32,000 nucleotides of DNA from Methanobrevibacter olleyae (lineage in GTDB: Archaea; Methanobacteriota; Methanobacteria; Methanobacteriales; Methanobacteriaceae): positions 8,389-40,388 of the forward strand of contig SUTG01000015.1 in assembly GCA_015063035.1 (NCBI GenBank), read 5' to 3'. Positions within the stretch are counted from its first letter, which is position 1, and the number at the start of each line of letters is the position of its first letter. Shown here in pieces: positions 550 through 29,855 of the stretch. The position numbers and the translations under genes are program-made. The notes below the pieces were generated by a model, which was given only the letters and a program-made list of their open reading frames with translations, was not told the DNA's origin and did no database searches.

Positions 550-1614
550 TTATTTCAAAACAATGGTATTTGCAAGGGCTGCGATTTGAGATTTATTTAA
601 GCTAGTATACTTTAAAACATCCTCAACTTTGAATCCATCTTCTAAAAGCCTTTCTACAACTTTCACCTCACCTAAGACTTTTCCTTCTTCCATAGCTTCC
701 TCCTTGACTTCCTCTTTAACTTCCTCTTTAACTTCCTCTTTGGCATTTTCCAAAAGTTCTTTTAATTTTGCTTCCTGTATAACTTGCTTTTCGTACATAT
801 CTAACTTATGCAAATCCTCTTCGCTTAACATTTTACTATCCCTCTTAAATTTTTCAAGCTGTTGCCTATCTAAAACTTGTTGAGCAAGCAATCTTTGATG
901 ATTCTTAATATCAATAAAAACATGTTTATCTGAAATATTAAGTTTTGAAGTTATCTCATCAGTTTTATAAATTAAGTCTTTTCTTTTTTCCAAATCCTCT
1001 GTCATGAATGGAATTGTTAATAATATAGCCAAATCATATTCGTCCGGCTTTTTGTCAATTTCTATTATTTTATCCATTATATTTAAATATGTCGATAAAT
1101 CTAGGCTAGTTAACGATTTAACATGCGGAGTAAACCCATATTCAATTTTTAAGGAATTTAAATCATTTGTATCGGCTATCACATCTTCATCGAAATATTC
1201 CCCAAATCCGAATAATTCATTTGAATCCTCTTTTGCATCTAAACTTATGATAGTCACTATTGTCTCCAATCCCGTTTCCTTATAAACCAAAACTTGATAA
1301 GACCCAAATCTTATTAAATCCTTATCACTTATAGGCCCTGTTTGAAATTCATTTATATACATCTTCGGCTCATCGGATTCTATCAAGTTATCAATATGCA
1401 ACTCTCCGAATATTTCATTGATTTTTTCTGTATTATGAAACTGTTTAATTTTTATTGGATAGCCAATAAGTTTCATAAATCCTTCTCCAGCGATAGACAT
1501 CACATTTTTAAAGTATTTATCATAAGGCTTATGAACCCTATAATCACCCTTATCAATCTTTAAGTTAGATGATGGATTAGTATTGGTCAGAGGAAAATCT
1601 TTACCAATTGTCAT
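550..1614 (-). CDS. PD-(D/E)XK nuclease-family putative transposase (Rpn/YhgA-like)
   Basis: 354-aa ORF. The ATG is preceded by GGTGAT, 3 nt upstream. PYDKYFKNVM resembles the N-terminal HD..FK box. ELHIDNL..MYINEFQT resembles the D..E-x-Q nuclease core. A Glu/Lys tract (EEVKEEVKEEVKEE) and a helical tail follow. The family was assigned from recalled motifs only. Confidence 0.5.
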   Translation of the reverse strand: MTIGKDFPLTNTNPSSNLKIDKGDYRVHKPYDKYFKNVMSIAGEGFMKLIGYPIKIKQFHNTEKINEIFGELHIDNLIESDEPKMYINEFQTGPISDKDLIRFGSYQVLVYKETGLETIVTIISLDAKEDSNELFGFGEYFDEDVIADTNDLNSLKIEYGFTPHVKSLTSLDLSTYLNIMDKIIEIDKKPDEYDLAILLTIPFMTEDLEKRKDLIYKTDEITSKLNISDKHVFIDIKNHQRLLAQQVLDRQQLEKFKRDSKMLSEEDLHKLDMYEKQVIQEAKLKELLENAKEEVKEEVKEEVKEEAMEEGKVLGEVKVVERLLEDGFKVEDVLKYTSLNKSQIAALANTIVLK

Positions 1615-1920
1615 GATATCACCAAAAAAATTATAATCAATGCCTAATTTATAAAAACTAATATATAAATTAGTAGTTTTTAATAAAACTCCTTTAACAA
1701 TCTCAAATCAATATTCTAAGGATTTTAAACTTTTTAAAATTATTATAATAATCTAATGAAATTATAAATTAAATCGCCAGTGAAAGATCATAATGAAATC
1801 AATTAAAAAAAAACAAGTCAAATAAAAAAAATAAAACAACTAAAAAAAACAACTAAAAAAATATACAATAAAACCAAATAAACAAAAAACAACTAAAAAA
1901 ATAAGAAAAAAATAAAAATT

Positions 1921-1965
1921 ATTAAAAAAAATAAGAAAAAGTGAAATATTGTAAGAATATTTCAC
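1921..1965 (-). terminator. Hairpin plus T-tract terminator immediately after the beta-helix protein gene
   Basis: Stem gtgaaatatt (1941-1950) pairs with aatatttcac (1956-1965) around a 5-nt loop. On the minus strand it is followed by TTTTTCTTATTTTTTTT. It abuts the stop codon at 1966-1968. Confidence 0.6.
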
Positions 1966-3585
1966 TTAAGATTTATATGGATTAGACTCGGTATATGCTA
2001 CACCATCAACATATAAAGTGTGTCCTTCATAATAGATTTCACCATTGTTTTCCAAGCTTGTTATATGACTGTCTCCATCTAATGTCCAGTCAGAGCCAGA
2101 TTCGATTACGACATCAGTTTGTCCAAAATCATCAGAAGGATTGATGGTTCCAACATAGCTGGTAGAGCTTAAAGTCATATTCAATGAACTGATGGAATCT
2201 ACAATAATGTTTCCATCGAGAATTTCATCTTTTGCATTGAAAGTGAGCTGGCCACCATTTGAACCTGCTGTTCCCCATTGGCTTTGACCTGAAACATCCA
2301 ATAATGTGCCGCTGCCATAGTTAAGTTCTGTTTTTTCCAAATTAATGATTGCCTTGGTATTGGTAACATGGAACATTGGTGCAGATTCATAATACTCGGA
2401 ATCAGATAGAATTGACAATGCAGAATCCTTTGCAGTGAAAATGGATGTGCCCACATCAGCATCTCCACTCATGCTTTGATAGATGAATACACCACCTAAA
2501 TCCACATATTCACCATTATCCTGCCTGTTTCCACCTGCAGCTGCAGACAAGTCACAGTTTGTAAGTTCAATGCTGTTTTTACCTTCAATACAAGCTATTT
2601 GAGAAACATAAGCAGTACCTACAGAGTTTGCTACAGTTATGTTTCCTGTAGAGTAGATTATTGGTGAACCACTACCGCTTTCCTTGCTCACTCCCGTATT
2701 CAGTTCACTGTCACTTACATGAACCTCTCCTTCACCACGATCAGTGGCAAGAGCTGCACAGCTTTGACCATTTGTATTGATTATGACATTTTGAGCATTG
2801 ATGATCCCATTGTATGTTGCATCAAGTCCACGGGACTGGTCACTGTATGTGGTAATTTCCACATTTTCAATATTTGCCACTGTTGAACCTTCTACACTAT
2901 CTTGATTAGATGCGGACATAGCTGATGATTCACCACCACTAGGAGCTCCATTAGAATCACCAGAACTCATTTCAGGAGGAGTGCCACCATCTGAAGAATT
3001 ATCACCAGAACTCATAGAAGGAGGACTGCCACCATTCGAAGAATTATCACCGGAAGGCATAGCAGGAGGTGTTCCTCCATTAGTTGAATCTTCTCCAGAC
3101 CCGCTTGAACTTTCTGCCAATCCATTACCGTCCAATACAACAGAACCATTAGAAGAGGAAGAGGAACTTTCTGCATTTGTTACAAAAATACCATTTGATC
3201 CTTTTGAATTTGTAATTATCTTTACATTGGAGATATCCAAGCTCCCATTTGTATTAACTAAAACCGCTGAGTTGATTCCATAGAAGTCAACATCATCCCC
3301 AGTTGAACTTGTATCCCCTGTTTTATTGATTATGGAATTAGCTAATTTCAATACTCCATTGTTTTTTACTAAAACAGCGTTTTCATCAGAAGATGAACTT
3401 GAATACAAACCATTGTCTGCAGAGATCTCTTCTGAGTCAACAACTAGATTTCCCTTATCTTCAAGTGCATTTGCATCAACATTTACTGAAGCACTATTAC
3501 CTGATTGCATATTACTTAATGCAAAGGCACCAGCACATATTATTATGATTATTGCAATTATTGCAATTAAGATTTTTTTATTCAT
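1966..3585 (-). CDS. Secreted or membrane-anchored right-handed beta-helix protein, Cthe_2159-like carbohydrate-binding family (putative)
   Basis: The ORF track extends to 3603 with a TTG start. The ATG at 3585 gives MNKKILIAIIAIIIIICAGAFALSN, a signal peptide or anchor. Periodic N/G/S-x-I/V beta-helix turns are present. The blocks DFYGINSAVLV, CAALATDRGEGEV, GSPIIYSTGNI and ACIEGKNSIEL recall the family named after C. thermocellum Cthe_2159. There is an internal S/G/P linker. Confidence 0.55.
   Translation of the reverse strand: MNKKILIAIIAIIIIICAGAFALSNMQSGNSASVNVDANALEDKGNLVVDSEEISADNGLYSSSSSDENAVLVKNNGVLKLANSIINKTGDTSSTGDDVDFYGINSAVLVNTNGSLDISNVKIITNSKGSNGIFVTNAESSSSSSNGSVVLDGNGLAESSSGSGEDSTNGGTPPAMPSGDNSSNGGSPPSMSSGDNSSDGGTPPEMSSGDSNGAPSGGESSAMSASNQDSVEGSTVANIENVEITTYSDQSRGLDATYNGIINAQNVIINTNGQSCAALATDRGEGEVHVSDSELNTGVSKESGSGSPIIYSTGNITVANSVGTAYVSQIACIEGKNSIELTNCDLSAAAGGNRQDNGEYVDLGGVFIYQSMSGDADVGTSIFTAKDSALSILSDSEYYESAPMFHVTNTKAIINLEKTELNYGSGTLLDVSGQSQWGTAGSNGGQLTFNAKDEILDGNIIVDSISSLNMTLSSTSYVGTINPSDDFGQTDVVIESGSDWTLDGDSHITSLENNGEIYYEGHTLYVDGVAYTESNPYKS
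2954..3088. repeat. In-frame imperfect 45-bp tandem repeat, about 3 copies, encoding an S/G/D/P-rich linker
   Basis: Units start near 2954, 2996 and 3041. They encode GEDSTNGGTPPAMP, SGDNSSNGGSPPSMS and SGDNSSDGGTPPEMS. Confidence 0.85.
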
Positions 3586-3798
3586 AGGAATTAATAACTC
3601 CAAACTTGCCTATAAATTTTACTATTAACGTAACAAAATAAGAAATCGAAAAATATGAAAAAATTGAAATAATGAATTTAAATTCCCAATTAAAAATCGT
3701 GACCCCACTAACTAGTAGTAGTTAAATCTAATTTGAAGAATATTGTTTAAAAATTTCCTGGATTTATATTCAAATGTTTAACAACTAAAAACAAGTTA

Positions 3799-3837
3799 AA
3801 AAAAAAAAAGTGAAAGGTGGATAAATAAATATCCACT
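3799..3837 (-). terminator. Hairpin plus T-tract terminator after the tannase gene
   Basis: Stem gtggata (3818-3824) pairs with tatccac (3831-3837) around a 6-nt loop. On the minus strand it is followed by CTTTCAC and then a run of 12 T. It lies 4 nt after the stop codon at 3842-3844. Confidence 0.6.
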
Positions 3838-3841
3838 CATT

Positions 3842-5728
3842 TTAGTTTAAGCAATTATTCACCCAATTAATGAAATTGGTGGTGGAGTCACCAGTTCTTT
3901 CTGCTTGGGTGTGTCCTTGACCCCATACAGTTGAAAACTCAACGTTATCTTTTCCAACCTTATTCAACACTGCCAAATATAGGTTGACATCAACACATTG
4001 AGATGTGTCCCCCTGTTCAATACCTGTATTGATTCTCCAATAGTTAGCCACGTCAGAGCTTCCAGCTCCATCATAGTAGTCGCATAAGTAATACATTGGA
4101 TTATACATGTTTACACGGGTTTCCATAGAATTGTTTAAACTATCTGTTGCCGCCAAATCATTTTTATATTGGCTAGCATAATCAGATGAGTAATCACTGT
4201 ATTTGGAGTAAGATTCGCCATTATTGTTAAGCAACTCGCTTAATGTTTTATCGAAATGTGATGAACTGTTTGCATCAATACCAAACAATGCATTTTCAGC
4301 TTGAGAACGTTCCAAATCATCAAAAGCAGCTACAGATTTAGATGGGTTTTTGCAATGTTTTACAAAAGCTTCCAAACTGGTGATTTTTGCTGTGTTTGTA
4401 CTTGCATCATATTCAATCCATGTTTCGTTTCCATTAAGTGAATCTATATAGTCCTGTGCAGTTTCATAGCTTGTTGAAGAGTCTGCATCAGTGCTTTCAC
4501 TTGACATTTCACCACTCAAATTTCCACTTGGAGCCTCACCAGAAGGAGCCTCACCACTCATATTTCCACTTGGAGCCTCACCAGAAGGAGCCTCACCACT
4601 CATATTTCCACTTGGAGCCTCACCAGAAGGAGCCTCACCAGAAGGCATTTCTCCGCTAGTTGCTTCACCTGATTGCATGTCTCCCATGCCATTGGAACTT
4701 GGAGTGTAAGGGAATGTTGTATCATTCAAGAAATTATTCAATGACTCTTCAGTAACACTTAACATATAGTCGTAGTAACTGCCTGATGTATAGATTCCAC
4801 TATCGCTTTCCTCTAGTGTCAATGTGTTTCCATTCGGATCTTTTAAGCCTAAATCGTTAATGTATTTAGCATATTCTGTTGCCAAATCAGTGCTTAATGC
4901 ACCGGTAAATGAATCTGAACTTCTCGCATATTGTCCCAGATTCCATTCATATGCTCCATCAGCTGTATCCAAATTGGTTATTGGACACCAACACATTGAA
5001 CCATAGATTGCATTTGACAATGCGTTTCCATCCTTATCAACCATAGCAGCTCCGATATCCTCCAAATATGGATTATATAATTCACTGTTTCCGGAAGCTC
5101 CCATTATTGCAGATTGGGCTCCTCCTCCACTATGGCCAAATGTGAATATTTTCTCATCATCTCCAGGCAATACATCACCATTGAATCTGTAATAGCTTAC
5201 AGCTGCTTTCAGGTCAACTACACCATCAGGCGCTTCTGCATTGTCTCTTCCTCTGCAACCGGCATTCAAGTAGATGAATCCAGCGTCAGTGTATTCTTTA
5301 ATTTCACCTGCATTGTAGCTTGTAGGTGCTGCACATGAGGAATAACCAGGTGTGTTTACTGGCATCACTATAGGTGCAGAGCCAGCGGTATAATTTCCAA
5401 CCTGTACATTTTCATTTAAACTACAAGTATAAGTCCCATTTGAATTTTTTGTCCCATCAAAGTATTTTCCAGGAACATATATTCCACAGGATTCATAAGC
5501 AGTGTCTTCAGGATTCATACAGTATACAAGACCTATTTGATAATAGATGTCATTTGTTTCGTCATATTGCCAATTATTCATGTCGATTGATAGGGAATTC
5601 GTTAAAACACTTGCATTATATGAAGGCCCATCTCCTGTAGGGGTTGAACTGCCCATCAGGAAAAAAGCTCCTACAATCGCAAGTAGAATAATTATGGCAA
5701 TTGCAATAAGTTTATGTAATTTTTTCAT
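3842..5728 (-). CDS. Secreted tannase (tannin acyl hydrolase, bacterial subtype-B-like alpha/beta hydrolase)
   Basis: The ORF track extends to 5779. The ATG at 5728 has GGTGG 4 nt upstream and gives [28 protein letters not shown], a signal anchor. Several blocks align by eye with Lactobacillus plantarum TanB as I recall it. [12 protein letters not shown] matches [58 protein letters not shown] matches [61 protein letters not shown] matches [29 protein letters not shown] matches HWRIRHGAADRDTS. The C-terminal GHT matches PHS. The Ser, Asp and His triad positions are all present. Confidence 0.8.
   Translation of the reverse strand: [628 protein letters not shown]
4511..4646. repeat. In-frame near-perfect 42-bp tandem repeat, about 3.1 copies, inside the tannase gene
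   Basis: The unit tttccacttggagcctcaccagaaggagcctcaccactcata starts at 4521, 4563 and 4605. It encodes [14 protein letters not shown] repeats. Confidence 0.95.
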
Positions 5729-6153
5729 AATACCACCATTAAGTAATAATAATAATAACTCCCATTTCTTATTTAACATTTTCTAAGAAAAACCCCGTTT
5801 TAATCATTTTTTTTATAATGGAATGCATTAGACTTTTAAAATTATATAAGATTGGGAGGTTTTTACTTTAACATTTTTGGTTGTAATAATTGGGAAATCA
5901 TTATCTATGATATAAGTATGCATATGGAAATGAGGTTTGGGTGTATGTGAAAAAAATTATAAATGTGAAAAGAAACTAAACAAGTTTAAAAATTAAGAAA
6001 GATATGAAAAAAACTGAAATTTAATAGAAATTTAATTAAAAATTTTTGCCTAAGAAACAAGTACAATTTTAATTAAAAGGAAATATAAAATAAAAAAAGA
6101 AATTAAGATAAACTATAAAATAATTATAGCTATCTTCAATATAATTAAAAGAA

Positions 6154-6861
6154 TTATTTGAAATATGAAATCAATTCATCTGCATCTATCTTAGGCAGTA
6201 AATTTGTATCATTTTGATAAACTTTTGCTATAACCGGAACATTGCAAAGATCTTCAACCATCTTGATATTGTCATTTTCCATAAGCTCATCCCTGTAATT
6301 GTTCATGATGATTCCACATGGACGAATGTTTCTGTTTTTCAAGTATTCAACTGTGGTGACAATTGAGTTGATTGTTCCAAGCCCTGCATCGGCAATGAGT
6401 ATGACATCAAGACCAAGATACTTTATTATGTCCTCAAGCATGATGTTGCTCTCATGGTCTTTTCCGTCGTAACGTATAGGGCAAACTATACCTCCACTCC
6501 CTTCCATCACGATATAATCATATTTTTGGGATACCTTTTCATAAGCATCTTTCACTACATCTAAATTTACTGGATTTCCTTCAATCTGACTTGCAAGATG
6601 TGGTGAAACTGCAGTTTCATAAATGTATGGAACCAAGAAATCGGTATCTTCCTCTAAACCAGCCATTGTCAATACCTCTACAGCATCTCCAGGAACCAAA
6701 GAACCATTTTCATCTCTTATGGCTCCACTTAAAGCCGCTTTGAAATAAGTGGCATCATATCCATTGTCACGAATATACTTCAGCAATAATCCGGTGACAT
6801 ATGTTTTTCCAATATCTGTTCCAGTTCCAATTACAAAGAGTCCTTTAGACACAAGTATCAC
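6154..6861 (-). CDS. bioD: Dethiobiotin synthetase
   Basis: 235-aa ORF with the P-loop GTGTDIGKTYVTG. The GTG start overlaps the bioB stop (GTGA). An alternative GTG 3 codons downstream would give MSKGLFVIGTGT. Confidence 0.85.
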   Translation of the reverse strand: MILVSKGLFVIGTGTDIGKTYVTGLLLKYIRDNGYDATYFKAALSGAIRDENGSLVPGDAVEVLTMAGLEEDTDFLVPYIYETAVSPHLASQIEGNPVNLDVVKDAYEKVSQKYDYIVMEGSGGIVCPIRYDGKDHESNIMLEDIIKYLGLDVILIADAGLGTINSIVTTVEYLKNRNIRPCGIIMNNYRDELMENDNIKMVEDLCNVPVIAKVYQNDTNLLPKIDADELISYFK

Positions 6862-7853
6862 AATCCATCTATTGAGTAAGTTATTTCAAAACCTAATTCT
6901 TCCAAAAGTTTCAAGTCATTATCCAATTCCACACCTTGAGTGGTTAGCATATCCCCTAAAATTCCCGCATTTGCACCGGACTGGAATGCCTTTCTGCCAT
7001 TGTCTCCTAAAAGGGCTCTTCCACCAGCCATACGGATATATGCATCAGGATTTATGAATCTGAATATTGCAATTATTCTACATGCCTCATCATTGGATAA
7101 TATCTCATTGTTCTCTACAGGAGTTCCCTTGATTGGGTTCAAGACATTTATTGGTATTGACTTGACTCCATACTCCCTCAATTGCAATGCCAAATCAATC
7201 CTATCCTCAAAGCTTTCACCCATACCAAATATTCCGCCACTGCAAATCATTGCATTTTCATTTTCTATCATGTCCAATGTTTCCAATTTTTCTTCATATG
7301 AATGGGTAGTGCATATTTCCTTGAAGTAATCCCTTGAACTTTCAAGATTGTTGTGAATCCTATCCACACCTGCATCATTCAAAGCGGATATCTGGTCATT
7401 TGTCAAAAGCCCTAATGAAACGCATATCCTTATGTCATTGCATTCCCCTTTTAATTCCTCAATGAGATTGGATAATGTTTCAAAGTCCTTTTGAGTAACT
7501 TTCCTTCCTGAAGCGACATAGGATATCCTTTTGAAACCTGAATTGTAAATGGCTAAAGACTTTTCCTTCAGTTCCTCTTTGGATAGAAGGGGATAAATTT
7601 CAATATCAGTATCATAGTGATTGGATTGGGCACAGAACTTACAGTTTTCACTGCATCTACCGCTTTTCACATTGATTATCATGCAGGCATCGAATCTATT
7701 TGCGCAAAATGACTTTCTTATTTCATTTGCTCCACTTGTCAAATCATCCAATGGAACATCAATGAGATTCATTGCATCCTCCTTAGTGACTTTGTAGCCA
7801 TTCAACACCTTGTCTTTCAATTCATCCACATCAAACATGATACCACTAAACAT
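6858..7853 (-). CDS. bioB: Biotin synthase (radical SAM)
   Basis: 331-aa ORF. It carries the CSENCKFCAQ (CxxxCxxC) radical-SAM cluster, IHNNLESS and a YIRMAGGR-type C-terminal region. It is translationally coupled to bioD. Confidence 0.9.
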   Translation of the reverse strand: MFSGIMFDVDELKDKVLNGYKVTKEDAMNLIDVPLDDLTSGANEIRKSFCANRFDACMIINVKSGRCSENCKFCAQSNHYDTDIEIYPLLSKEELKEKSLAIYNSGFKRISYVASGRKVTQKDFETLSNLIEELKGECNDIRICVSLGLLTNDQISALNDAGVDRIHNNLESSRDYFKEICTTHSYEEKLETLDMIENENAMICSGGIFGMGESFEDRIDLALQLREYGVKSIPINVLNPIKGTPVENNEILSNDEACRIIAIFRFINPDAYIRMAGGRALLGDNGRKAFQSGANAGILGDMLTTQGVELDNDLKLLEELGFEITYSIDGL

Positions 7854-7935
7854 TACAATTGTTATAAAAATAAACTGTTATAAACGATAGAATAAAATCT
7901 TGAAATTAAAAAATATTCTATTTGATAAAGATCGC

Positions 7936-8667
7936 CTAAAGCTTTCTAGCAAAAACCAAATAACCGCTATGGCCAACCATTCTTGTTTTTGGTCTTGTAC
8001 CTTGAGGCCTTATTTCCATTTCTCTCTCAAGGGTTTCAAGAATTGTAAGATCCCTAAAGCCTAATTTCTTTGCAATCCTATAAGCTGTTTCAGCTTGATC
8101 TATATATGGAGCATAAACCGCTAACCATCCTCCAAGCCTTAATGCCTTTTTAACGTCTTCAAAAATCTCAAATGGCTTTGGAAGGTCTAGGAAAACCAAG
8201 TCAATTTCCTCTTCATCGATTCCATCCTTGATGTTTTGGTTTTTGACTTCAATGTTCTTTATTCCAAAATCATCAATGTTCTTTTTAGCAACCTCTGCAA
8301 AGTCTTCACGTATTTCATAAGTGAATACCTTACCTTTTTCTCCGACAACATTTCCGAAGTTCAATGCAATAGCTCCAGCACCTGTACCTGCATCGATTAC
8401 CCTATCACCTGAACCGAGTCCAGTTCGAGCAAGAACAGTTCCAATATCCTTTTGGATAAGAATGGAACATCTTCTGTCCATTAAGTCAATGAAATCATTT
8501 ACAGTTGGCTTAATGACTTTAAACTCCTTATTTAAATGAGTGATTATTGTATCACCAATAGTAGCTCTTTCCATTTGCTCTTTTTTAATAATACCTAAAT
8601 CAGTTTGGAACTCTCTATCTTCCTTGATTAAGTATTTTTTTCCTCTTTCATCCATTAAAATCTTCAA
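7936..8667 (-). CDS. trmI: tRNA (adenine-N1)-methyltransferase, TrmI/Gcd14 family
   Basis: 243-aa ORF with the SAM-binding VIDAGTGAGAIAL motif, DLPKP and a C-terminal HSGYLVFARK typical of TrmI. The start is TTG at 8667 or ATG at 8655. Confidence 0.8.
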   Translation of the reverse strand: MKILMDERGKKYLIKEDREFQTDLGIIKKEQMERATIGDTIITHLNKEFKVIKPTVNDFIDLMDRRCSILIQKDIGTVLARTGLGSGDRVIDAGTGAGAIALNFGNVVGEKGKVFTYEIREDFAEVAKKNIDDFGIKNIEVKNQNIKDGIDEEEIDLVFLDLPKPFEIFEDVKKALRLGGWLAVYAPYIDQAETAYRIAKKLGFRDLTILETLEREMEIRPQGTRPKTRMVGHSGYLVFARKL

Positions 8668-8833
8668 ATAATCACCATCTAAATGAAATTTGTAAAATTG
8701 ATTGAAATAAAAATTATGAAAAAATATTATGAAATAAATATTATATTGAATTTTTTAAATAATAGTTATTTTTAAACTAATAGTTATTTTTAGCTTTTAT
8801 TATATATAATAATTTTTTAAAATGAGATAATTT

Positions 8834-8927
8834 TTTTATCAAAGGAACAAGCATGCTAAAAATTAAAAAAAAGAAAAAAATTTTATCAAAGGAACAATCA
8901 TTTGAAAAAAGAAGAAATTTAAAAAAA
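8834..8927. repeat. Imperfect 47-bp tandem duplication in the hef-trmI intergenic region
   Basis: ttttatcaaaggaacaa starts both copies, at 8834 and 8881. The remainder of each unit is A-rich and diverged. Confidence 0.75.
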
Positions 8928-8950
8928 TAGAAAATAAAGAAACCTAAGAG

Positions 8951-11455
8951 TCATTTAAGTTTCTTTTGATTGTCATCTTTTTTGAAATAGAGATACTTTC
9001 CTTCAACAACTTCCTTAATGTTCTTAGCTGTTTTCTTACCGATTCCCTCGACTTCCTGAAGTTTTTTCTCATCTGCTTCAAGGACGGCCTTAACAGTTCC
9101 AAAGTGTTCAAGCAATCTCTTTGCATGTACAGGTCCTATTCCAGGCAATGATTCTATTATGAAAAGTTGCTGTTCCCAAAGGTTTTGAGGTTTTCTTTCA
9201 GTCCTGATTTGGATGCTGCGTTTTTCACCTTTCTGTTCCCTGATTGCAATTCTTTTAATCATTGCAGCAGTATCTTCCTCTGTTCTTGTTGGGATGATGC
9301 TGATGCCATAGTCAAGTGCAATAGAGGTCATGGCACCTCTGATTGCATTAGGATTTATGAATCCTGAATAGAAATCATCTCCTTCAAGGATCATGATTGG
9401 CTTTTTAAACTCTTCCATCATCATTCTTGCCTGCTTGAACAGTCTCTTATCAACAATGGAATCTACAAAGTCTTTTGCAGTCTTTCTCTCTATTGCAACT
9501 TCCTCACTAACTTGATAATCTGCAACAGCCATTGTATTGACTTTAACCTTAACGCCAATTGTATCCAATGCCCTTATGACCTTGGAGTTTCCTTCTCTTG
9601 TATCAACATAAACAACCAGATCCTGATTTTGAGGATTTTTGGCAAGCTCTTCATAAATCGCATCTTCTAAAGCCTGTTGCTCTTTGGCTTCCTTATCTCT
9701 AAGCTCTTTCAGCTTGATTTCATTCTCATTTTCAAGATTGATCTCTTCAATATCCTCATCACTGACTTCCTCTTCCAATGAATCATCCATATCCGAAGTG
9801 ACAGGTTCCTCTATAATTGAGTTTTCCCTTTTGCCTAAAACCTTAACTTTACGTTCTGTTTCAATCTTTTCAGCAGCATTAAGCTTTAGCTCTTCAATAG
9901 CCTCCTGTGTTGCAAGCTGTGTCTTCATTCTGGACTCTCTTCTAACGCTTGTCCAGTAATAACCTTCATCTATTGTCTTCTTGGTTATCAAGACCTTCAT
10001 CCTACCTGATGATTTACGGCCAGTTCTCCCTCTTCTTTGTATCATACGGATTTCAGATGGAACAGGTTCATATAAAATAACCAAATCAACTGCAGGGATA
10101 TCTATACCTTCTTCTGCAACGCTTGTTGAAATCAAAACATCGTAATTTCCAGTCTTAAAGGATTTGATGATGTTTTTCTGCTCTTTTTGAGTTAATCCTT
10201 TCTTGCCGTCACTGGTTCCTTGACCATAGAACCTGACGCTTTTGATTCCTTCCTTCTCACATCTTTCATGAATCATGTCTAAAGTGTCTCGAAACTGTGT
10301 AAACACGATGATTTTAGGACTGTCATTATCCTCACCATCATCTCTGAGTGATTTCAATCTTGTCTGGCCATCCATACCAAGCTCTAGCTTAAGGAGTTCT
10401 ATGAGCTTTTTCATCTTTGGATGCTCAAGGCCATACTCCTCTGCCTCTTTTGCAAGATAAACCGCTTTTGAAAAGTTTGGATCAAGCAGGATATTCTTAG
10501 CGGCTCTTGTAGTTTTCTTTCTGAGTCTTCCCACATAATCGTTGAATGGAGCAACTCCCTGACTTTCCAAAAGCCCTAATGCATGCTGCAAGTTAATCAC
10601 TGCAGAAAGAATGGATATTGCCTGGAAACATTCCTTAGGAGGATTTACGGATTGGCCTATTTTCCTTTGAACCCTAGACCTTGCCTTCAGTATATCCCTT
10701 TTGTTTACAGCCACTGTGTTGATGATTCCTAAATCCTTCAAGCCCTTGAGACGAACCTTTAGTGCCTTATTCACCAAATCTCTGATTTTTTCGAGTCTTG
10801 GACCCATTTCAACCTTTATCCAGTCAATGTTGATTGGATTGAAGTATGGCTTTACGTCAGGGTCCTCTTCAGTCTTGATGGTGATATCCTGAATGAAAAG
10901 GTTTTCGCAAACTTCCTTGATCTTGCTCTTGTCATGTCCTGGAGAAGCGGTAAGTCCTAAAATGAGATGGTTTTGACATTCCTTGACATATCTTGATGCA
11001 AGGTAAACATAGGAATAGGAACCTACTGCATGGTGACATTCATCAAAAACAACAAGGGAAACGTCATCCAAACTGTATCTTTCATTCAATAGGTCTGATT
11101 CAACGGTTTGAGGTGTTGCACAAATGACCTGTGACTCTCTCCATCGCTTTTCCCGTTCATCTGTCTTTACAGCCCCAGTGATTGAGGTGCAAGGAACATT
11201 TAGGAAGTGCTTGAAGTTTTCTTCATGCTGTATGGTTAATGGTTTACTTGGAGCTAAAATAAGAATTTTTGATCCTTTTAATTTTTGAAGCCTATCTGCA
11301 GCCACGAGTATTGCAATGATTGTCTTACCTAAAGCTGTTGGAGCTACAATCATTGTATTTCCCTTCTTCAATACATCTGCTGCCAATACCTGTTGATAAA
11401 TCCTAGCTTCTGCTGAATTCGGCCTAATTAAAGGATGTTCGATATAAGTAACCAT
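8951..11455 (-). CDS. hef: Hef: DEAH-box helicase fused to an ERCC4/XPF nuclease and an HhH2 domain
   Basis: 834-aa ORF. Walker A is APTALGKT and motif II is FDECHH. There is an acidic disordered linker. The nuclease core is VYVDTRE..VADYQVS..ERKTAKDF. The HhH2 domain is LPGIGPVHAKRLL..VEGIGKKTAKNI. Confidence 0.9.
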   Translation of the reverse strand: MVTYIEHPLIRPNSAEARIYQQVLAADVLKKGNTMIVAPTALGKTIIAILVAADRLQKLKGSKILILAPSKPLTIQHEENFKHFLNVPCTSITGAVKTDEREKRWRESQVICATPQTVESDLLNERYSLDDVSLVVFDECHHAVGSYSYVYLASRYVKECQNHLILGLTASPGHDKSKIKEVCENLFIQDITIKTEEDPDVKPYFNPINIDWIKVEMGPRLEKIRDLVNKALKVRLKGLKDLGIINTVAVNKRDILKARSRVQRKIGQSVNPPKECFQAISILSAVINLQHALGLLESQGVAPFNDYVGRLRKKTTRAAKNILLDPNFSKAVYLAKEAEEYGLEHPKMKKLIELLKLELGMDGQTRLKSLRDDGEDNDSPKIIVFTQFRDTLDMIHERCEKEGIKSVRFYGQGTSDGKKGLTQKEQKNIIKSFKTGNYDVLISTSVAEEGIDIPAVDLVILYEPVPSEIRMIQRRGRTGRKSSGRMKVLITKKTIDEGYYWTSVRRESRMKTQLATQEAIEELKLNAAEKIETERKVKVLGKRENSIIEEPVTSDMDDSLEEEVSDEDIEEINLENENEIKLKELRDKEAKEQQALEDAIYEELAKNPQNQDLVVYVDTREGNSKVIRALDTIGVKVKVNTMAVADYQVSEEVAIERKTAKDFVDSIVDKRLFKQARMMMEEFKKPIMILEGDDFYSGFINPNAIRGAMTSIALDYGISIIPTRTEEDTAAMIKRIAIREQKGEKRSIQIRTERKPQNLWEQQLFIIESLPGIGPVHAKRLLEHFGTVKAVLEADEKKLQEVEGIGKKTAKNIKEVVEGKYLYFKKDDNQKKLK

Positions 11456-28212: not shown

Positions 28213-29346
28213 GTGGAAAAGCCACAATTAGTGAATTTTATTGCTAAAGTTCTTGAGGATTCTGGCTTTAAAGTTTATAAAAATTTTAAGACATCCCAAC
28301 AGGTTGTAGACATTTATGCAATCCTTCAAACATCCATGGGGGATTTTGGTTTAGTGGTTGCATGTAAAAACTATGATAAGGATTGGGAAGTAGGAATCGA
28401 TGTTTTAAAGGAAATGGAAGTGCTCGGTAAAAAGCTTAGAGCTTCCAAGGTTGCTGTTGTAACCAGTTCCGGTTTTTCATCTCAAGCAAAAAGATATGCT
28501 GAAGAGAGGAAGATAAAGCTTATAGACAGAAACAACCTTGTCACTTTAGCTAAAAAATATTCAAATAAAAACAAGGAAACTAAGGCAAGATTAGACCGTG
28601 GAGCAAACAGATTAACAGACATTGATAGCGATTCATTCTATCATAGAGATGTTAGCAGAGAATATATTGACAATACATCAAATTATAATAGCGAATATGA
28701 TGATGACAAGTCATATAACAGGCTTCAAGGTGCTTATGAAACTTATGAGGAATTCTCTGAAGACATGGAATATTACGAGGATGAAGTTGGCGGATTGGAA
28801 TTGAGTCATTACAGTGAATATGATGATGACCTTTACCGTGCCGAGTTCTTAAATAAAACTCCTAGAGACAACTATTCCGGCCCAAGTGCTACACTATTTG
28901 CAAATCGTCAGCAACAAACTCAAAGAAGGAGAAGCGTACCTTCCCTTTCAGGAAATAGAAGAGCCGGATCTCTTAGCCAAAGAAGCAATAGGCCTACAAA
29001 CAATCATAGCTTCTTCTCATCTTCTGATAATGCCTTAAGTAATTTTGGCGGACATGTCCCTCAAAAGCCAAGCAAGCCATGGGGAGAGATTATAAAACCT
29101 ATATTAAGCAACCCTATAGCATCTGTTGCTGTGGTAGTCATTATTTCATATTTAATTGGATTTATCCTTGGAAAAATAATAAAAGTGCCTACAGGATACT
29201 TAGGTATTGCTGAACTATTTATGGCATTGATATTGTCTTATGGCATTGTATTGTATTCAGACAAAGAAGCGGATGTTATAGTGAAAGGATCAATCGTGTT
29301 CTTTATCTCATTAGTGATAATCATGATATTGATTGTTGCTTTCTAG
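28213..29346 (+). CDS. Membrane-anchored Mrr-cat-like (restriction endonuclease fold) protein with a long disordered linker
   Basis: The GTG start has AGGTGA 5 nt upstream. Residues 1-115 follow the Mrr_cat layout: FIAKVLEDSGFKV..VVDIYA..GLVVACKNY..KVAVVTSSGFSSQAKRYAEERKIKLIDRNNLVTLA. About 170 residues rich in Y/D/E and then R/S/Q/N follow. Three predicted C-terminal TM helices are PIASVAVVVIISYLIGFILG, LGIAELFMALILSYGIVLY and SIVFFISLVIIMILIVAF. Confidence 0.6.
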   Translation: MEKPQLVNFIAKVLEDSGFKVYKNFKTSQQVVDIYAILQTSMGDFGLVVACKNYDKDWEVGIDVLKEMEVLGKKLRASKVAVVTSSGFSSQAKRYAEERKIKLIDRNNLVTLAKKYSNKNKETKARLDRGANRLTDIDSDSFYHRDVSREYIDNTSNYNSEYDDDKSYNRLQGAYETYEEFSEDMEYYEDEVGGLELSHYSEYDDDLYRAEFLNKTPRDNYSGPSATLFANRQQQTQRRRSVPSLSGNRRAGSLSQRSNRPTNNHSFFSSSDNALSNFGGHVPQKPSKPWGEIIKPILSNPIASVAVVVIISYLIGFILGKIIKVPTGYLGIAELFMALILSYGIVLYSDKEADVIVKGSIVFFISLVIIMILIVAF

Positions 29347-29634: not shown

Positions 29635-29650
29635 AAAAAAAGTTGAGAAG

Positions 29651-29722
29651 TGGTTCCGACGAGATTCGAACTCGTGATCCTCTCGTTGTAAGCGAGATAT
29701 CATACCCCTAGACCACGGAACC
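29651..29722 (-). tRNA. tRNA-Val: tRNA-Val (anticodon UAC), copy 1
   Basis: The minus-strand sequence is GGTTCCGTGGTCTAGGGGTATGATATCTCGCTTACAACGAGAGGATCACGAGTTCGAATCTCGTCGGAACCA. The acceptor stem is 7 bp. The anticodon stem TCTCG/CGAGA encloses the loop CTTACAA. The T arm is ACGAG-TTCGAAT-CTCGT. No CCA is encoded. Confidence 0.9.
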
Positions 29723-29783
29723 AATGCAAAAAATAGAATTAAAGTTTTTTTAAAAAAATTAATTCAAAAAATAAAGAATAGAG

Positions 29784-29855
29784 TGGTTCCGACGAGATTC
29801 GAACTCGTGATCCTCTCGTTGTAAGCGAGATATCATACCCCTAGACCACGGAACC
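29784..29855 (-). tRNA. tRNA-Val: tRNA-Val (anticodon UAC), copy 2, identical to copy 1
   Basis: The 72-nt sequence is the same as at 29651-29722. The two copies are separated by a 61-nt AT-rich spacer. Confidence 0.9.

What the first reader, a model, noticed from the sequence alone, without database searches (positions are those of the whole stretch)
3842..5728. A signal-anchored bacterial-type tannase with an intact catalytic triad encoded in a methanogen
Long blocks of this ORF align by eye with Lactobacillus plantarum tannase TanB as I recall it. The aligned blocks include the nucleophile elbow (GHSGGG against GTSAGG), the GASGNS..GAA and [11 protein letters not shown] blocks, the Asp region (GDTS against RDTS) and the C-terminal His. 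In TanB these are Ser163, Asp419 and His451. The N-terminus is a signal anchor, so the enzyme would be extracellular. Hydrolysable tannins and gallate esters are established inhibitors of gut and rumen methanogens. A secreted tannase could therefore be a detoxification or niche-adaptation trait. That functional link is my inference.
Basis: partly seen in the sequence, partly recalled or inferred. Interest (0 to 1): 0.7.

Follow-up and report, generated by a model that had tools for sequence, protein, structure and literature searches.

The report
Exported subtype A tannase in Methanobrevibacter
The gene is real and almost certainly encodes an exported bacterial-type tannase in a rumen methanogen, but this was published for the same genus in 2016, and the enzyme is the "subtype A" kind, which has glutamine, not aspartate, as the third catalytic residue.

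Summary
The ORF (minus strand, 5728→3842, 628 aa) is confirmed. It scores 858 bits against NCBIfam NF041555 "subtype A tannase" (cutoff 550). It fails the subtype B (TanB) model, at 239 bits against a cutoff of 300.

The nucleophile Ser200 (GHSGG), His606 and the galloyl-binding Lys464, Glu478 and Asp574 are conserved in 77–80 of 80 relatives. The Asp of GDTS aligns with TanB Asp421, the gallate binder. TanB's catalytic Asp419 aligns with Gln572, the documented hallmark of subtype A.

The host is archaeal: the exact protein is MBE6512370.1 from a Methanobrevibacter olleyae MAG. A signal-peptide tannase, horizontal transfer and tannin tolerance were all proposed for M. millerae SM9 in 2016 (PMC4987999), so the finding is already known. 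I found no report of enzyme activity being tested for any methanogen tannase.

New details:
- The gene lies on a ~2.4-kb segment between bioD and bioA that close relatives lack.
- That segment is 99–100% identical to one in a lineage whose flanks are ~9% diverged.
- A sister lineage carries a frameshift that cuts off the signal peptide.
- A 14-aa tandem repeat in the disordered cap varies from 2 to 4 copies.

The parts
3842..5728 (-). Coding sequence of the subtype A tannase (628 aa, stop codon included)
   Evidence: ORF list. NCBIfam NF041555 scores 858 bits against a cutoff of 550, covering model positions 47-619 of 619. The exact protein is MBE6512370.1.
5732..5737 (-). GGTGGT Shine-Dalgarno-like motif 3 nt upstream of ATG 5728
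   Evidence: Read directly from the sequence. The alternative ATG at 5779 has no such motif, and orthologues start at the 5728-equivalent Met.
5651..5728 (-). N-terminal export segment (residues 1-26: MKKLHK followed by a ~20-residue hydrophobic helix). It is either a signal peptide or an uncleaved signal anchor.
   Evidence: AlphaFold predicts a helix over residues 3-26, followed by a low-confidence linker at 26-35. The segment is conserved across Methanobrevibacter orthologues and has no lipobox Cys, whereas 33 of 44 bacterial homologues have a lipobox. Cleavage was not predicted, because no signal-peptide tool was available.
5123..5137 (-). Nucleophile elbow G198-H-S200-G-G202 (Ser200 corresponds to TanB Ser163)
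   Evidence: HMMER alignment to 3WA6/6YQ4/7Q6Y. Ser200 is invariant in 80 of 80 relatives.
4478..4696 (-). Cap-position-I insertion (residues 345-417). It is Ser/Gly/Glu/Pro-rich and predicted disordered.
   Evidence: pLDDT is about 26 over residues 345-417. Subtype B structures have no counterpart: their alignments break between about residue 330 and 445. Its position relative to the Ser and the Lys matches the CbTan1 cap F359-Y426 (PMC11571031). This is inferred from position, not from a direct alignment.
4509..4640 (-). 42-bp (14-aa, [14 protein letters not shown]) tandem repeat, 3.1 copies, inside the cap. Copy number varies among alleles.
   Evidence: Tandem Repeats Finder reports 98% matches. 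The cap lengths correspond to about 2 to 4 units in L096, L081, L087, L085 and the window.
4295..4339 (-). Galloyl-hydroxyl ligands Lys464 (4337-4339) and Glu478 (4295-4297), equivalent to TanB Lys343 and Glu357
   Evidence: HMMER alignment to 3WA6, with the same 14-residue spacing. Lys464 is kept in 77 of 80 relatives (Arg in the other 3). Glu478 is kept in 80 of 80.
4007..4015 (-). Q572-G-D574. Gln572 sits at the position of the triad acid (TanB Asp419). Asp574 corresponds to TanB Asp421, a galloyl ligand.
   Evidence: Ungapped HMMER alignments: 'gieqgdts' against 'gaadrdts' (3WA6) and 'gaidkdts' (6YQ4). Gln is kept in 80 of 80 relatives and Asp in 79 of 80.
3911..3913 (-). Catalytic His606 (equivalent to TanB His451) in WGQGH
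   Evidence: HMMER alignments. Invariant in 80 of 80 relatives.
3798..3836 (-). Terminator-like hairpin (GTGGAT...ATCCAC, 3836-3817) followed by a T12 run (3809-3798), just after the stop codon
   Evidence: Read directly from the sequence. Function was not tested.
3621..5984 (.). Roughly 2.4-kb tannase-bearing segment that is absent from closely related genomes at the same site
   Evidence: blastn breakpoints against the tannase-less loci L088, L097, L089 and L091, which read bioD then the 526-aa gene then bioA. The window tract of about 3605-6103 is 99-100% identical to L096, while the flanks are 76-97% identical.
6154..7853 (-). bioD (6154-6861) and bioB (6858-7853), the biotin genes upstream of the insertion
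   Evidence: Pfam AAA_26/CbiA for bioD and Radical_SAM plus BATS for bioB. In L090 and L093-L095, bioD is followed directly by bioA.
1966..3603 (-). 545-aa signal-anchored protein of unknown function, next to the tannase. It is probably not part of a tannase module.
   Evidence: No Pfam, NCBIfam or PDB match. It is present without the tannase in L088, L089, L091 and L097. It is absent from the tannase loci of other species.

Best explanation
The ORF encodes a subtype A (TanA-type) tannin acyl hydrolase of a rumen Methanobrevibacter in the M. olleyae group.

How it most likely works:
- The N-terminal Lys-rich and hydrophobic segment sends the protein through the Sec system to the cell surface or medium. 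Whether the segment is cleaved or stays as an anchor is undetermined.
- The alpha/beta-hydrolase core binds the galloyl ring through Lys464, Glu478 and Asp574.
- Ser200, activated by His606, attacks the galloyl ester or depside carbonyl. Gln572 replaces the usual Asp behind the His, as in all subtype A enzymes.
- The products are gallic acid and the polyol or catechin core.
- A disordered, repeat-containing cap (residues 345-417) lies over the active site.

Shown: family membership, residue conservation, fold and archaeal context. Inferred: export, activity on gallotannins and the physiological role. The role is probably relief from tannin toxicity rather than catabolism, because no gallate-degradation gene lies next to it in this or in other methanogen loci.

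The gene is accessory. It sits on a ~2.4-kb segment inserted between bioD and bioA. The segment is variably present, and it appears to have been exchanged recently between diverged Methanobrevibacter lineages.
For: Family and fold:
- NF041555 equivalog, 858 bits against a cutoff of 550. Pfam BD-FAE.
- PDB tannases are the only strong sequence matches and the only strong fold matches. The model has pLDDT 83.
- S200, Q572, H606 and E478 are kept in 80/80 relatives, D574 in 79/80, K464 in 77/80 and C248 in 79/80.

Literature on characterised subtype A enzymes:
- CbTan1, with Ser/His/Gln plus Asp/Lys/Glu, is an active tannase (PMC8958541; PMC11571031).

Archaeal host:
- The exact protein and its neighbours are deposited as M. 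olleyae MAG proteins.
- Hef, pseudomurein-type Mur ligases, AcnX and a Kae1-Bud32 fusion lie on the same contig.
- The tannase GC3 of 0.29 falls inside the host range of 0.24-0.37.
- Methanobacteriaceae tannases form one clade, with 98/100 NJ bootstrap support.

Selection: dN/dS is 0.11-0.13.

Accessory status: there are tannase-less relatives at the same locus, and a 99-100% identical tract is shared with L096 inside ~9% diverged flanks.

Standalone gene: each species has different neighbours, and none is a gallate decarboxylase.
Against: - No enzyme assay was found for any methanogen tannase in the searchable literature.
- Cleavage and localisation of the N-terminus were not predicted with a dedicated tool.
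- In the closest sister lineage the same gene carries a 1-nt insertion that separates the signal peptide from the mature domain. Close relatives lack the gene altogether. Both facts show it is dispensable and weaken any claim of a strong adaptive role.
- The contig is from a metagenome-assembled genome, and the mosaic identity pattern could in principle be an assembly chimera.
Confidence: 0.85

Rival explanations
1. It is a TanB-like tannase with a canonical Ser-Asp-His triad.
For: It shares the fold and about 22-25% identity with the TanB-type structures. An Asp does lie two residues after the triad position. One paper on a rumen TanA labels that Asp (32 residues before the His) as the triad acid (PMC8715002).
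Against: - The tannase_B model scores 239 bits, below its cutoff of 300, while tannase_A scores 858, above 550.
- TanB D419 aligns with Gln572 without gaps in three independent alignments.
- Gln is invariant in 80/80 relatives.
- The length of about 600 aa, the N-terminal export segment and the cap at position I are subtype A traits (PMC8958541, PMC11571031).
Confidence: 0.03
2. It is an exported esterase of the tannase fold whose real substrate is something other than galloyl esters, for example other phenolic or plant cell-wall esters.
For: Pfam sees only the general BD-FAE (feruloyl-esterase-like) domain. GenBank calls this exact protein only 'esterase'. Activity is untested. The cap region that shapes substrate preference is highly variable.
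Against: All three galloyl-hydroxyl ligands are conserved. The score clears a curated equivalog cutoff by about 300 bits. The characterised relatives named in the papers read here are tannases.
Confidence: 0.07
3. It is a decaying or functionally irrelevant accessory gene, a leftover of transfer rather than a working trait.
For: The sister lineage has a frameshift that removes the signal peptide, seen in many independent assemblies. Close relatives lack the gene. A Methanosarcinaceae homologue is truncated by an IS6 element.
Against: The window allele is intact, with RBS, signal segment, all catalytic residues and a terminator. dN/dS is 0.11-0.13. An essentially identical allele is present in a lineage about 9% diverged. 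That fits recent spread better than decay.
Confidence: 0.05
4. The gene is bacterial and only appears archaeal because of mis-binning or a chimeric assembly.
For: The source is a MAG, and the closest characterised relatives are bacterial.
Against: - Archaeal housekeeping genes flank it on both sides of one contig.
- The same arrangement recurs in at least 8 independent assemblies.
- Isolate genomes of M. millerae carry an orthologue (PMC4987999).
- Its GC3 matches the host.
- The Methanobacteriaceae clade is distinct, with 98% bootstrap support.
Confidence: 0.01

Closest known systems
Predicted tannase of Methanobrevibacter millerae SM9 (sm9_1028) and ZA-10 (Kelly et al. 2016, PMC4987999)
   Same: Same genus and same family. 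The M. millerae protein P0041 is 75% identical over the full length. It has an N-terminal signal segment, the same conserved residues and the same proposed role (extracellular tannin detoxification, acquired by HGT).
   Different: It is in a different species group (M. olleyae-like) and a different chromosomal site: between bioD and bioA here, next to prephenate dehydrogenase and a MarR gene in M. millerae. The cap repeat unit also differs. Neither protein has been assayed.
Characterised bacterial subtype A tannases (TanA of Staphylococcus lugdunensis, TanA of Lactiplantibacillus plantarum, TanA of Streptococcus gallolyticus, CbTan1 of Clostridium butyricum)
   Same: NCBIfam equivalog NF041555. 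About 600 aa, exported, Ser-His-Gln with a neighbouring galloyl-binding Asp plus Lys and Glu, and a cap at position I that is probably disordered (PMC8958541, PMC11571031).
   Different: The host is archaeal. The N-terminus is a non-lipobox hydrophobic segment, whereas most of the bacterial homologues sampled here have lipoprotein lipoboxes. The cap contains a recent 14-aa tandem repeat. Identity to the bacterial relatives retrieved here is about 48-54%. I did not compute identity to the characterised enzymes themselves.
Subtype B tannases with solved structures (TanB/TanLp 4J0C and 3WA6, F. nucleatum 6YQ4, CbTan2 7Q6Y)
   Same: Same alpha/beta-hydrolase tannase fold (TM 0.76-0.81). The Ser, the His and the Lys/Glu/Asp galloyl site are all aligned.
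   Different: Identity is only 22-25%. Subtype B enzymes have Asp at the triad position where this protein has Gln572. The subtype is described as shorter (470-570 aa) and usually without a signal peptide (PMC11571031), and the cap is inserted at a different point. This protein fails the NF041556 cutoff. No subtype A structure appeared in the PDB copy searched.

Membership tests
Subtype A tannase (NCBIfam NF041555; de las Rivas classification) | Whole-protein score above the curated equivalog cutoff | tested here: met
   858.4 bits against a cutoff of 550, E=3.2e-258, covering model positions 47-619 of 619
Subtype A tannase (NCBIfam NF041555; de las Rivas classification) | Gly-X-Ser-X-Gly nucleophile elbow and C-terminal catalytic His | tested here: met
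   G198-H-S200-G-G202 and H606 align with TanB S163 and H451. Both are invariant in 80/80 relatives.
Subtype A tannase (NCBIfam NF041555; de las Rivas classification) | An amide residue (Gln or Asn) in place of the triad Asp | tested here: met
   Gln572 aligns with TanB D419 and the F. nucleatum equivalent and is kept in 80/80 relatives. The feature is as described in PMC8958541 and PMC11571031.
Subtype A tannase (NCBIfam NF041555; de las Rivas classification) | Galloyl-binding Lys, Glu and Asp | tested here: met
   K464, E478 and D574 align with TanB K343, E357 and D421. Conservation is 77/80, 80/80 and 79/80.
Subtype A tannase (NCBIfam NF041555; de las Rivas classification) | About 600 residues with an N-terminal signal peptide | tested here: met
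   628 aa. MKKLHK is followed by a ~20-residue hydrophobic helix (residues 3-26 in the model). Whether it is cleaved or acts as an anchor could not be decided, because no signal-peptide predictor was available.
Subtype A tannase (NCBIfam NF041555; de las Rivas classification) | Cap insertion at position I | tested here: inconclusive
   Residues 345-417 are an insertion with no counterpart in subtype B structures, and they are predicted disordered. The position matches the CbTan1 cap F359-Y426 only by offset from the Ser and the Lys. No direct alignment to CbTan1 was made.
Subtype A tannase (NCBIfam NF041555; de las Rivas classification) | Hydrolysis of galloyl esters (EC 3.1.1.20) | not testable with these tools
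   This needs a recombinant enzyme assay. None was found in the literature for any methanogen tannase.
Subtype B tannase (TanB of L. plantarum; NCBIfam NF041556) | Whole-protein score above the curated cutoff | tested here: not met
   238.8 bits against a cutoff of 300
Subtype B tannase (TanB of L. plantarum; NCBIfam NF041556) | Canonical Ser-His-Asp triad (Asp419 position) | tested here: not met
   Gln572 occupies that position
Pfam BD-FAE (PF20434) alpha/beta-hydrolase domain | Score above the gathering threshold | tested here: met
   37.9 bits against 26.8, over residues 117-217

The most novel reading that the evidence does not exclude
The tannase cassette may be a strain-variable trait under current selection in rumen Methanobrevibacter. 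Four observations point that way:
- The ~2.4-kb segment is gained or lost at one chromosomal site.
- It has very recently been exchanged between lineages whose flanks are ~9% diverged.
- Export has been switched off by a frameshift in one lineage.
- The active-site cap changes length through slippage of a 14-aa repeat. Each unit carries an N-X-S motif, the consensus for N-glycosylation.

If carriage or allele state tracks dietary hydrolysable tannin, it would be a genetic marker. It could also be a cause of methanogen escape from tannin-based methane mitigation.
Probability: 0.25. Interest if true: 0.5.

Novelty: already known. Interest (0 to 1): 0.22.

Why it matters
Hydrolysable tannins are used and studied as feed additives to lower enteric methane. 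A methanogen that exports its own tannase could blunt that effect, so carriage of the gene matters for mitigation strategies. The idea and the gene family have been in the literature since 2016, and NCBI already names these proteins "subtype A tannase".

What this analysis adds is modest:
- It corrects the catalytic-residue assignment to Ser-His-Gln plus a galloyl-binding Asp.
- It shows that in the M. olleyae group the gene is a dispensable, recently exchanged ~2.4-kb segment.
- It records allelic variation (export frameshift, cap-repeat copy number) that could be screened against diet.

Tried and rejected
- **Synteny across species.** tblastn of ten window neighbours against 80 tannase loci found no shared neighbours. 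The only hit was a PIN-domain protein in three loci, L009-L011. The gene sits in a different context in each species, so there is no conserved operon and no gallate decarboxylase partner.
- **Junctions of the 2.4-kb segment.** An alignment with empty sites showed only AT-rich intergenic DNA. There were no target-site duplications or terminal repeats, so no transposition mechanism can be named.
- **Homology beyond the ORF.** Other species share only the ORF plus or minus about 50 bp.
- **The adjacent 545-aa protein.** No Pfam, NCBIfam or PDB match. It occurs without the tannase. I rejected it as part of a tannase module.
- **The extra ~1.5 kb at window ~309-1890.** It holds a 354-aa ORF with only a sub-threshold ISNCY-transposase hit (E=0.005). 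No convincing terminal inverted repeats were found. Left unresolved.
- **Compositional evidence for recent foreign origin.** The tannase GC3 is within the host range, so composition gives no signal.
- **All archaeal tannases as one clade.** Only 6/100 bootstraps support this. Rejected.
- **Structure prediction with a broader alignment.** I reran it with database hits only.
- **M. olleyae type strain.** No hit above 86% identity appeared among the species representatives.
Full report
**1. The observation**

The window has an ORF on the minus strand from ATG 5728 to the stop at 3844-3842, giving 628 aa. An upstream ATG at 5779 would add 17 residues. I prefer 5728 for three reasons:
- GGTGGT lies 3 nt upstream of it.
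- GenBank uses this start for the identical protein MBE6512370.1.
- Orthologues in other species begin at the same MKK/MEK.

A hairpin followed by a T12 run comes directly after the stop codon. The gene therefore looks like a self-contained transcription unit.

**2. Family assignment**

- NCBIfam gives "subtype A tannase" (NF041555, equivalog): 858 bits against a cutoff of 550, E=3.2e-258, covering almost the whole model.
- The subtype B model (NF041556) reaches only 239 bits, below its cutoff of 300.
- Pfam sees only the generic BD-FAE hydrolase domain.
- The only strong PDB sequence matches are the tannases of F. nucleatum (6YQ4), C. butyricum CbTan2 (7Q6Y) and L. plantarum (3WA6, 4J0C and related entries). 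E-values are 8e-42 to 4e-30 with the single sequence and 3.5e-67 to 1e-54 with a 35-sequence profile.
- An AlphaFold model built from 45 homologues has mean pLDDT 83 and pTM 0.81.
- The model's top 14 Foldseek hits are those same tannase structures, with TM 0.76-0.81 on the target and E~1e-27. Generic esterases follow at about 1e-8.
- All PDB hits are subtype B, at 22-25% identity. No subtype A structure turned up.

**3.

Counting along the HMMER alignment to 3WA6 gives these equivalences:

| TanB residue | Role in TanB | This protein |
|---|---|---|
| Ser163 | nucleophile | Ser200 (GHSGG) |
| His451 | general base | His606 (WGQGH) |
| Lys343 | galloyl ligand | Lys464 |
| Glu357 | galloyl ligand | Glu478 |
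| Asp421 | galloyl ligand | Asp574 (the D of GDTS) |
| Asp419 | triad acid | Gln572 |

The profile alignment to 6YQ4 gives the same register. Across 80 relatives, S200, Q572, H606 and E478 are invariant. D574 is kept in 79, K464 in 77 (Arg in the other three) and C248 in 79.

This is the documented subtype A arrangement. Ristinmaa et al. assign CbTan1 the triad Ser216/His611/Gln577 and the galloyl binders Asp579/Lys469/Glu483. They note it is unknown whether that Asp has a dual role (PMC8958541). [quoted passage not shown]

The TanALb paper labels the Asp 32 residues before the His as the triad acid (PMC8715002). So the enzyme is catalytically complete for its subtype, but it does not have a Ser/Asp/His triad, and it is TanA-like rather than TanB-like.

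**4. Export**

Residues 1-26 (MKKLHK followed by about 20 hydrophobic residues) are modelled as a helix. A low-confidence linker follows. The segment is conserved across Methanobrevibacter orthologues.

Of 44 bacterial homologues, 33 have a lipoprotein lipobox near the N-terminus. Only 3 of 32 Methanobacteriaceae sequences match the loose lipobox pattern, probably by chance. The leader therefore appears to have been remodelled in the archaeal lineage. I could not run a signal-peptide predictor. "Exported" is well supported, but "anchor versus cleaved" is open.

**5. Host**

The tannase and the three neighbours that carry source names (AcnX, Hef, BioB) match, residue for residue, proteins on a 40,431-bp contig. 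GenBank assigns the first two and the tannase to an M. olleyae MAG.

The window also encodes:
- Hef;
- two Mur-ligase paralogues of the kind used for pseudomurein;
- AcnX (phosphomevalonate dehydratase);
- a Kae1-Bud32 fusion;
- SurE and other housekeeping genes.

The tannase GC3 (0.29) lies within the range of its neighbours (0.24-0.37). Mis-binning is not a tenable explanation.

**6. Prior knowledge**

Kelly et al. 2016 reported signal-peptide tannases in both M. millerae genomes, with 50% identity to L. plantarum TanA and conserved catalytic and substrate-binding motifs. They hypothesised an extracellular tannase giving tannin tolerance, acquired horizontally from rumen bacteria (PMC4987999). 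A 2023 review repeats this.

NCBI names many Methanobrevibacter proteins "subtype A tannase", including members of this protein's 90% cluster. I found no paper reporting enzyme activity for a methanogen tannase. The finding is thus already known as a prediction and still untested as biochemistry.

**7. Distribution and phylogeny**

A scan of one genome per species found 361 relatives:
- The best 31 are Methanobrevibacter or Methanobacteriaceae MAGs from ruminant guts, at 56-86% identity. Some MAGs carry two or three copies.
- Bacterial homologues (Lachnospiraceae, Anaerolineae, Actinomycetota and others) are at 48-54%.
- Four class II methanogen MAGs (Methanocella, Methanomicrobiales, Methanosarcinaceae, Methanospirillum) are at about 49-54%.

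In an NJ tree on 560 columns, the Methanobacteriaceae sequences form one clade in 98/100 bootstraps. The other four methanogens form a separate clade in 74/100. A single all-archaea clade appears in only 6/100. This suggests one old entry into Methanobacteriaceae followed by diversification, and a separate history in class II methanogens. NJ on a top-hit-biased sample is a coarse test.

**8. The locus**

Across species the tannase has no conserved neighbours, and DNA homology stops within about 50 bp of the ORF. Among close relatives of the window, three states of the same site exist:
- (a) bioB-bioD-bioA: L090 and L093-L095.
- (b) bioD, then a 526/545-aa exported protein of unknown function, then bioA: L088, L089, L091 and L097.
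- (c) bioD, tannase, that same protein, then bioA: the window, L081-L087 and L096.

The segment missing in state (b) corresponds to window ~3621-5984. The junctions show no repeats.

Compared with L096, the window tract ~3605-6103 is 99-100% identical apart from the cap repeat. The flanks are much less similar: 85% in the 545-aa gene, 90.5% in bioD, 87.6% in bioB and 91% in hef. The simplest reading is a very recent exchange of the cassette between lineages about 9% apart, through recombination in the flanks. A chimeric metagenome assembly is the caveat.

**9. Allelic variation**

In the sister lineage (89% DNA identity to the window), a 1-nt insertion after codon ~44 ends the signal-peptide frame. 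It leaves a 55-aa ORF, and the mature domain is called from internal Met52, giving 555-583 aa (e.g. RefSeq WP_295608126.1). The same lesion is present in assemblies from at least seven sources, and one allele is recorded on 75 contigs. It is therefore real and widespread.

dN/dS between the window and these alleles is 0.11-0.13, so the domain evolved under constraint for most of its history. The frameshifted copies are probably not exported.

The cap (residues 345-417, pLDDT ~26) contains a 42-bp repeat with 98% matches. The number of 14-aa units runs from about 2 to 4 among otherwise near-identical alleles. Each unit includes N-X-S. According to PMC11571031, the cap affects substrate recognition in CbTan1. 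Whether repeat number matters here is unknown.

**10. Mechanism and role**

I commit to an exported Ser200/His606/Gln572 galloyl-ester hydrolase. It releases gallic acid from gallotannins and related esters outside the cell. Family membership and the active-site inventory are shown. Export, substrate and benefit are inferred.

No gallate-catabolic gene accompanies the tannase in any methanogen locus examined. Relief from tannin toxicity is therefore more plausible than nutrition. The gene is missing or has lost its signal-peptide frame in close relatives, so any benefit is conditional.

**11. Verdict**

This is a member of a known family, and the genus-level finding is published. Interest is low. 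The locus dynamics could serve as a modest lead for diet-linked population studies.

Noticed in passing
L081:7854-8010 (also L083, L085, L086, L087); window equivalent ~5590-5600: In the sister lineage a 1-nt insertion after codon ~44 puts the tannase signal peptide (left as a 55-aa ORF) out of frame with the mature domain. The mature domain is then annotated from an internal Met as a 555-583-aa 'subtype A tannase'. The lesion is seen in at least seven independent assemblies, and one allele is recorded on 75 contigs.
   Followed up: yes
window 3605-6103 vs L096:~7800-10200: The tannase cassette is 99-100% identical between the window and L096, while the flanking genes are only 76-97% identical. 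This suggests a very recent recombinational exchange between diverged lineages. A chimeric assembly is the alternative.
   Followed up: yes
L088, L089, L091, L097 (no tannase); L090, L093-L095 (bioD directly followed by bioA): Nested presence/absence at one site in the biotin gene cluster. Some relatives have nothing between bioD and bioA. Some have only the 526/545-aa exported protein. Some have that protein plus the tannase.
   Followed up: yes
window 4509-4640: A 42-bp tandem repeat (98% matches) encodes [14 protein letters not shown] inside the disordered cap. Copy number varies from about 2 to 4 among near-identical alleles. Each unit carries an N-X-S motif, the consensus for N-glycosylation.
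   Followed up: partly
window 1966-3603 (-): A 545-aa protein with an N-terminal hydrophobic segment and its own 45-bp tandem repeat (2956-3080, a Pro/Ser/Gly/Asp-rich stretch). It has no Pfam, NCBIfam or PDB match. It diverges faster than its neighbours (85% DNA identity to L096; dN/dS ~0.15).
   Followed up: partly
window ~309-1890 (ORF 550-1614, -): About 1.5 kb of extra low-GC DNA (25-31%) that is absent from L081, L085 and L096, between the 545-aa gene and bioA. It holds a 354-aa ORF with only a sub-threshold hit to an ISNCY-family transposase (E=0.005). No clear terminal inverted repeats were found.
   Followed up: partly
L045:7161-12523 (Methanosarcinaceae MAG, 291-kb contig with an HdrA/MvhD fusion gene at 677-3070): A 5'-truncated tannase_A homologue and a disaggregatase-related beta-helix protein are bracketed by two direct 847-bp copies (98.6% identical) of an IS6-family element (DDE_Tnp_IS240). 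The arrangement resembles a composite transposon. The IS end abuts tannase codon ~66.
   Followed up: partly
L033, L043, L045, L048: Subtype A tannase homologues also occur in MAGs of Methanocella, Methanomicrobiales, Methanosarcinaceae and Methanospirillum. They form a clade separate from the Methanobacteriaceae one, and some have Cys-containing lipobox-like leaders. I did not see this reported in the papers read.
   Followed up: partly
N-termini of 80 aligned homologues (tree alignment): Of 44 bacterial homologues, 33 carry a lipoprotein lipobox. The Methanobacteriaceae proteins have a conserved MKxxHK plus hydrophobic leader without the Cys. The export signal appears to have been remodelled after transfer.
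   Followed up: partly
window 29650-29855 (-): Two tandem tRNA-Val(TAC) genes lie 61 bp apart and have the same Rfam score.
   Followed up: no
window 28213-29346 (+): An Mrr-type restriction endonuclease domain protein (377 aa) lies next to the tRNA-Val pair. The GC skew changes sign around 24-28 kb.
   Followed up: no
PMC8715002 (TanALb paper): A published paper on a rumen subtype A tannase lists Ser205/His614/Asp582 as the triad. That Asp is the residue 32 positions before the His, equivalent to Asp574 here.
   Followed up: yes
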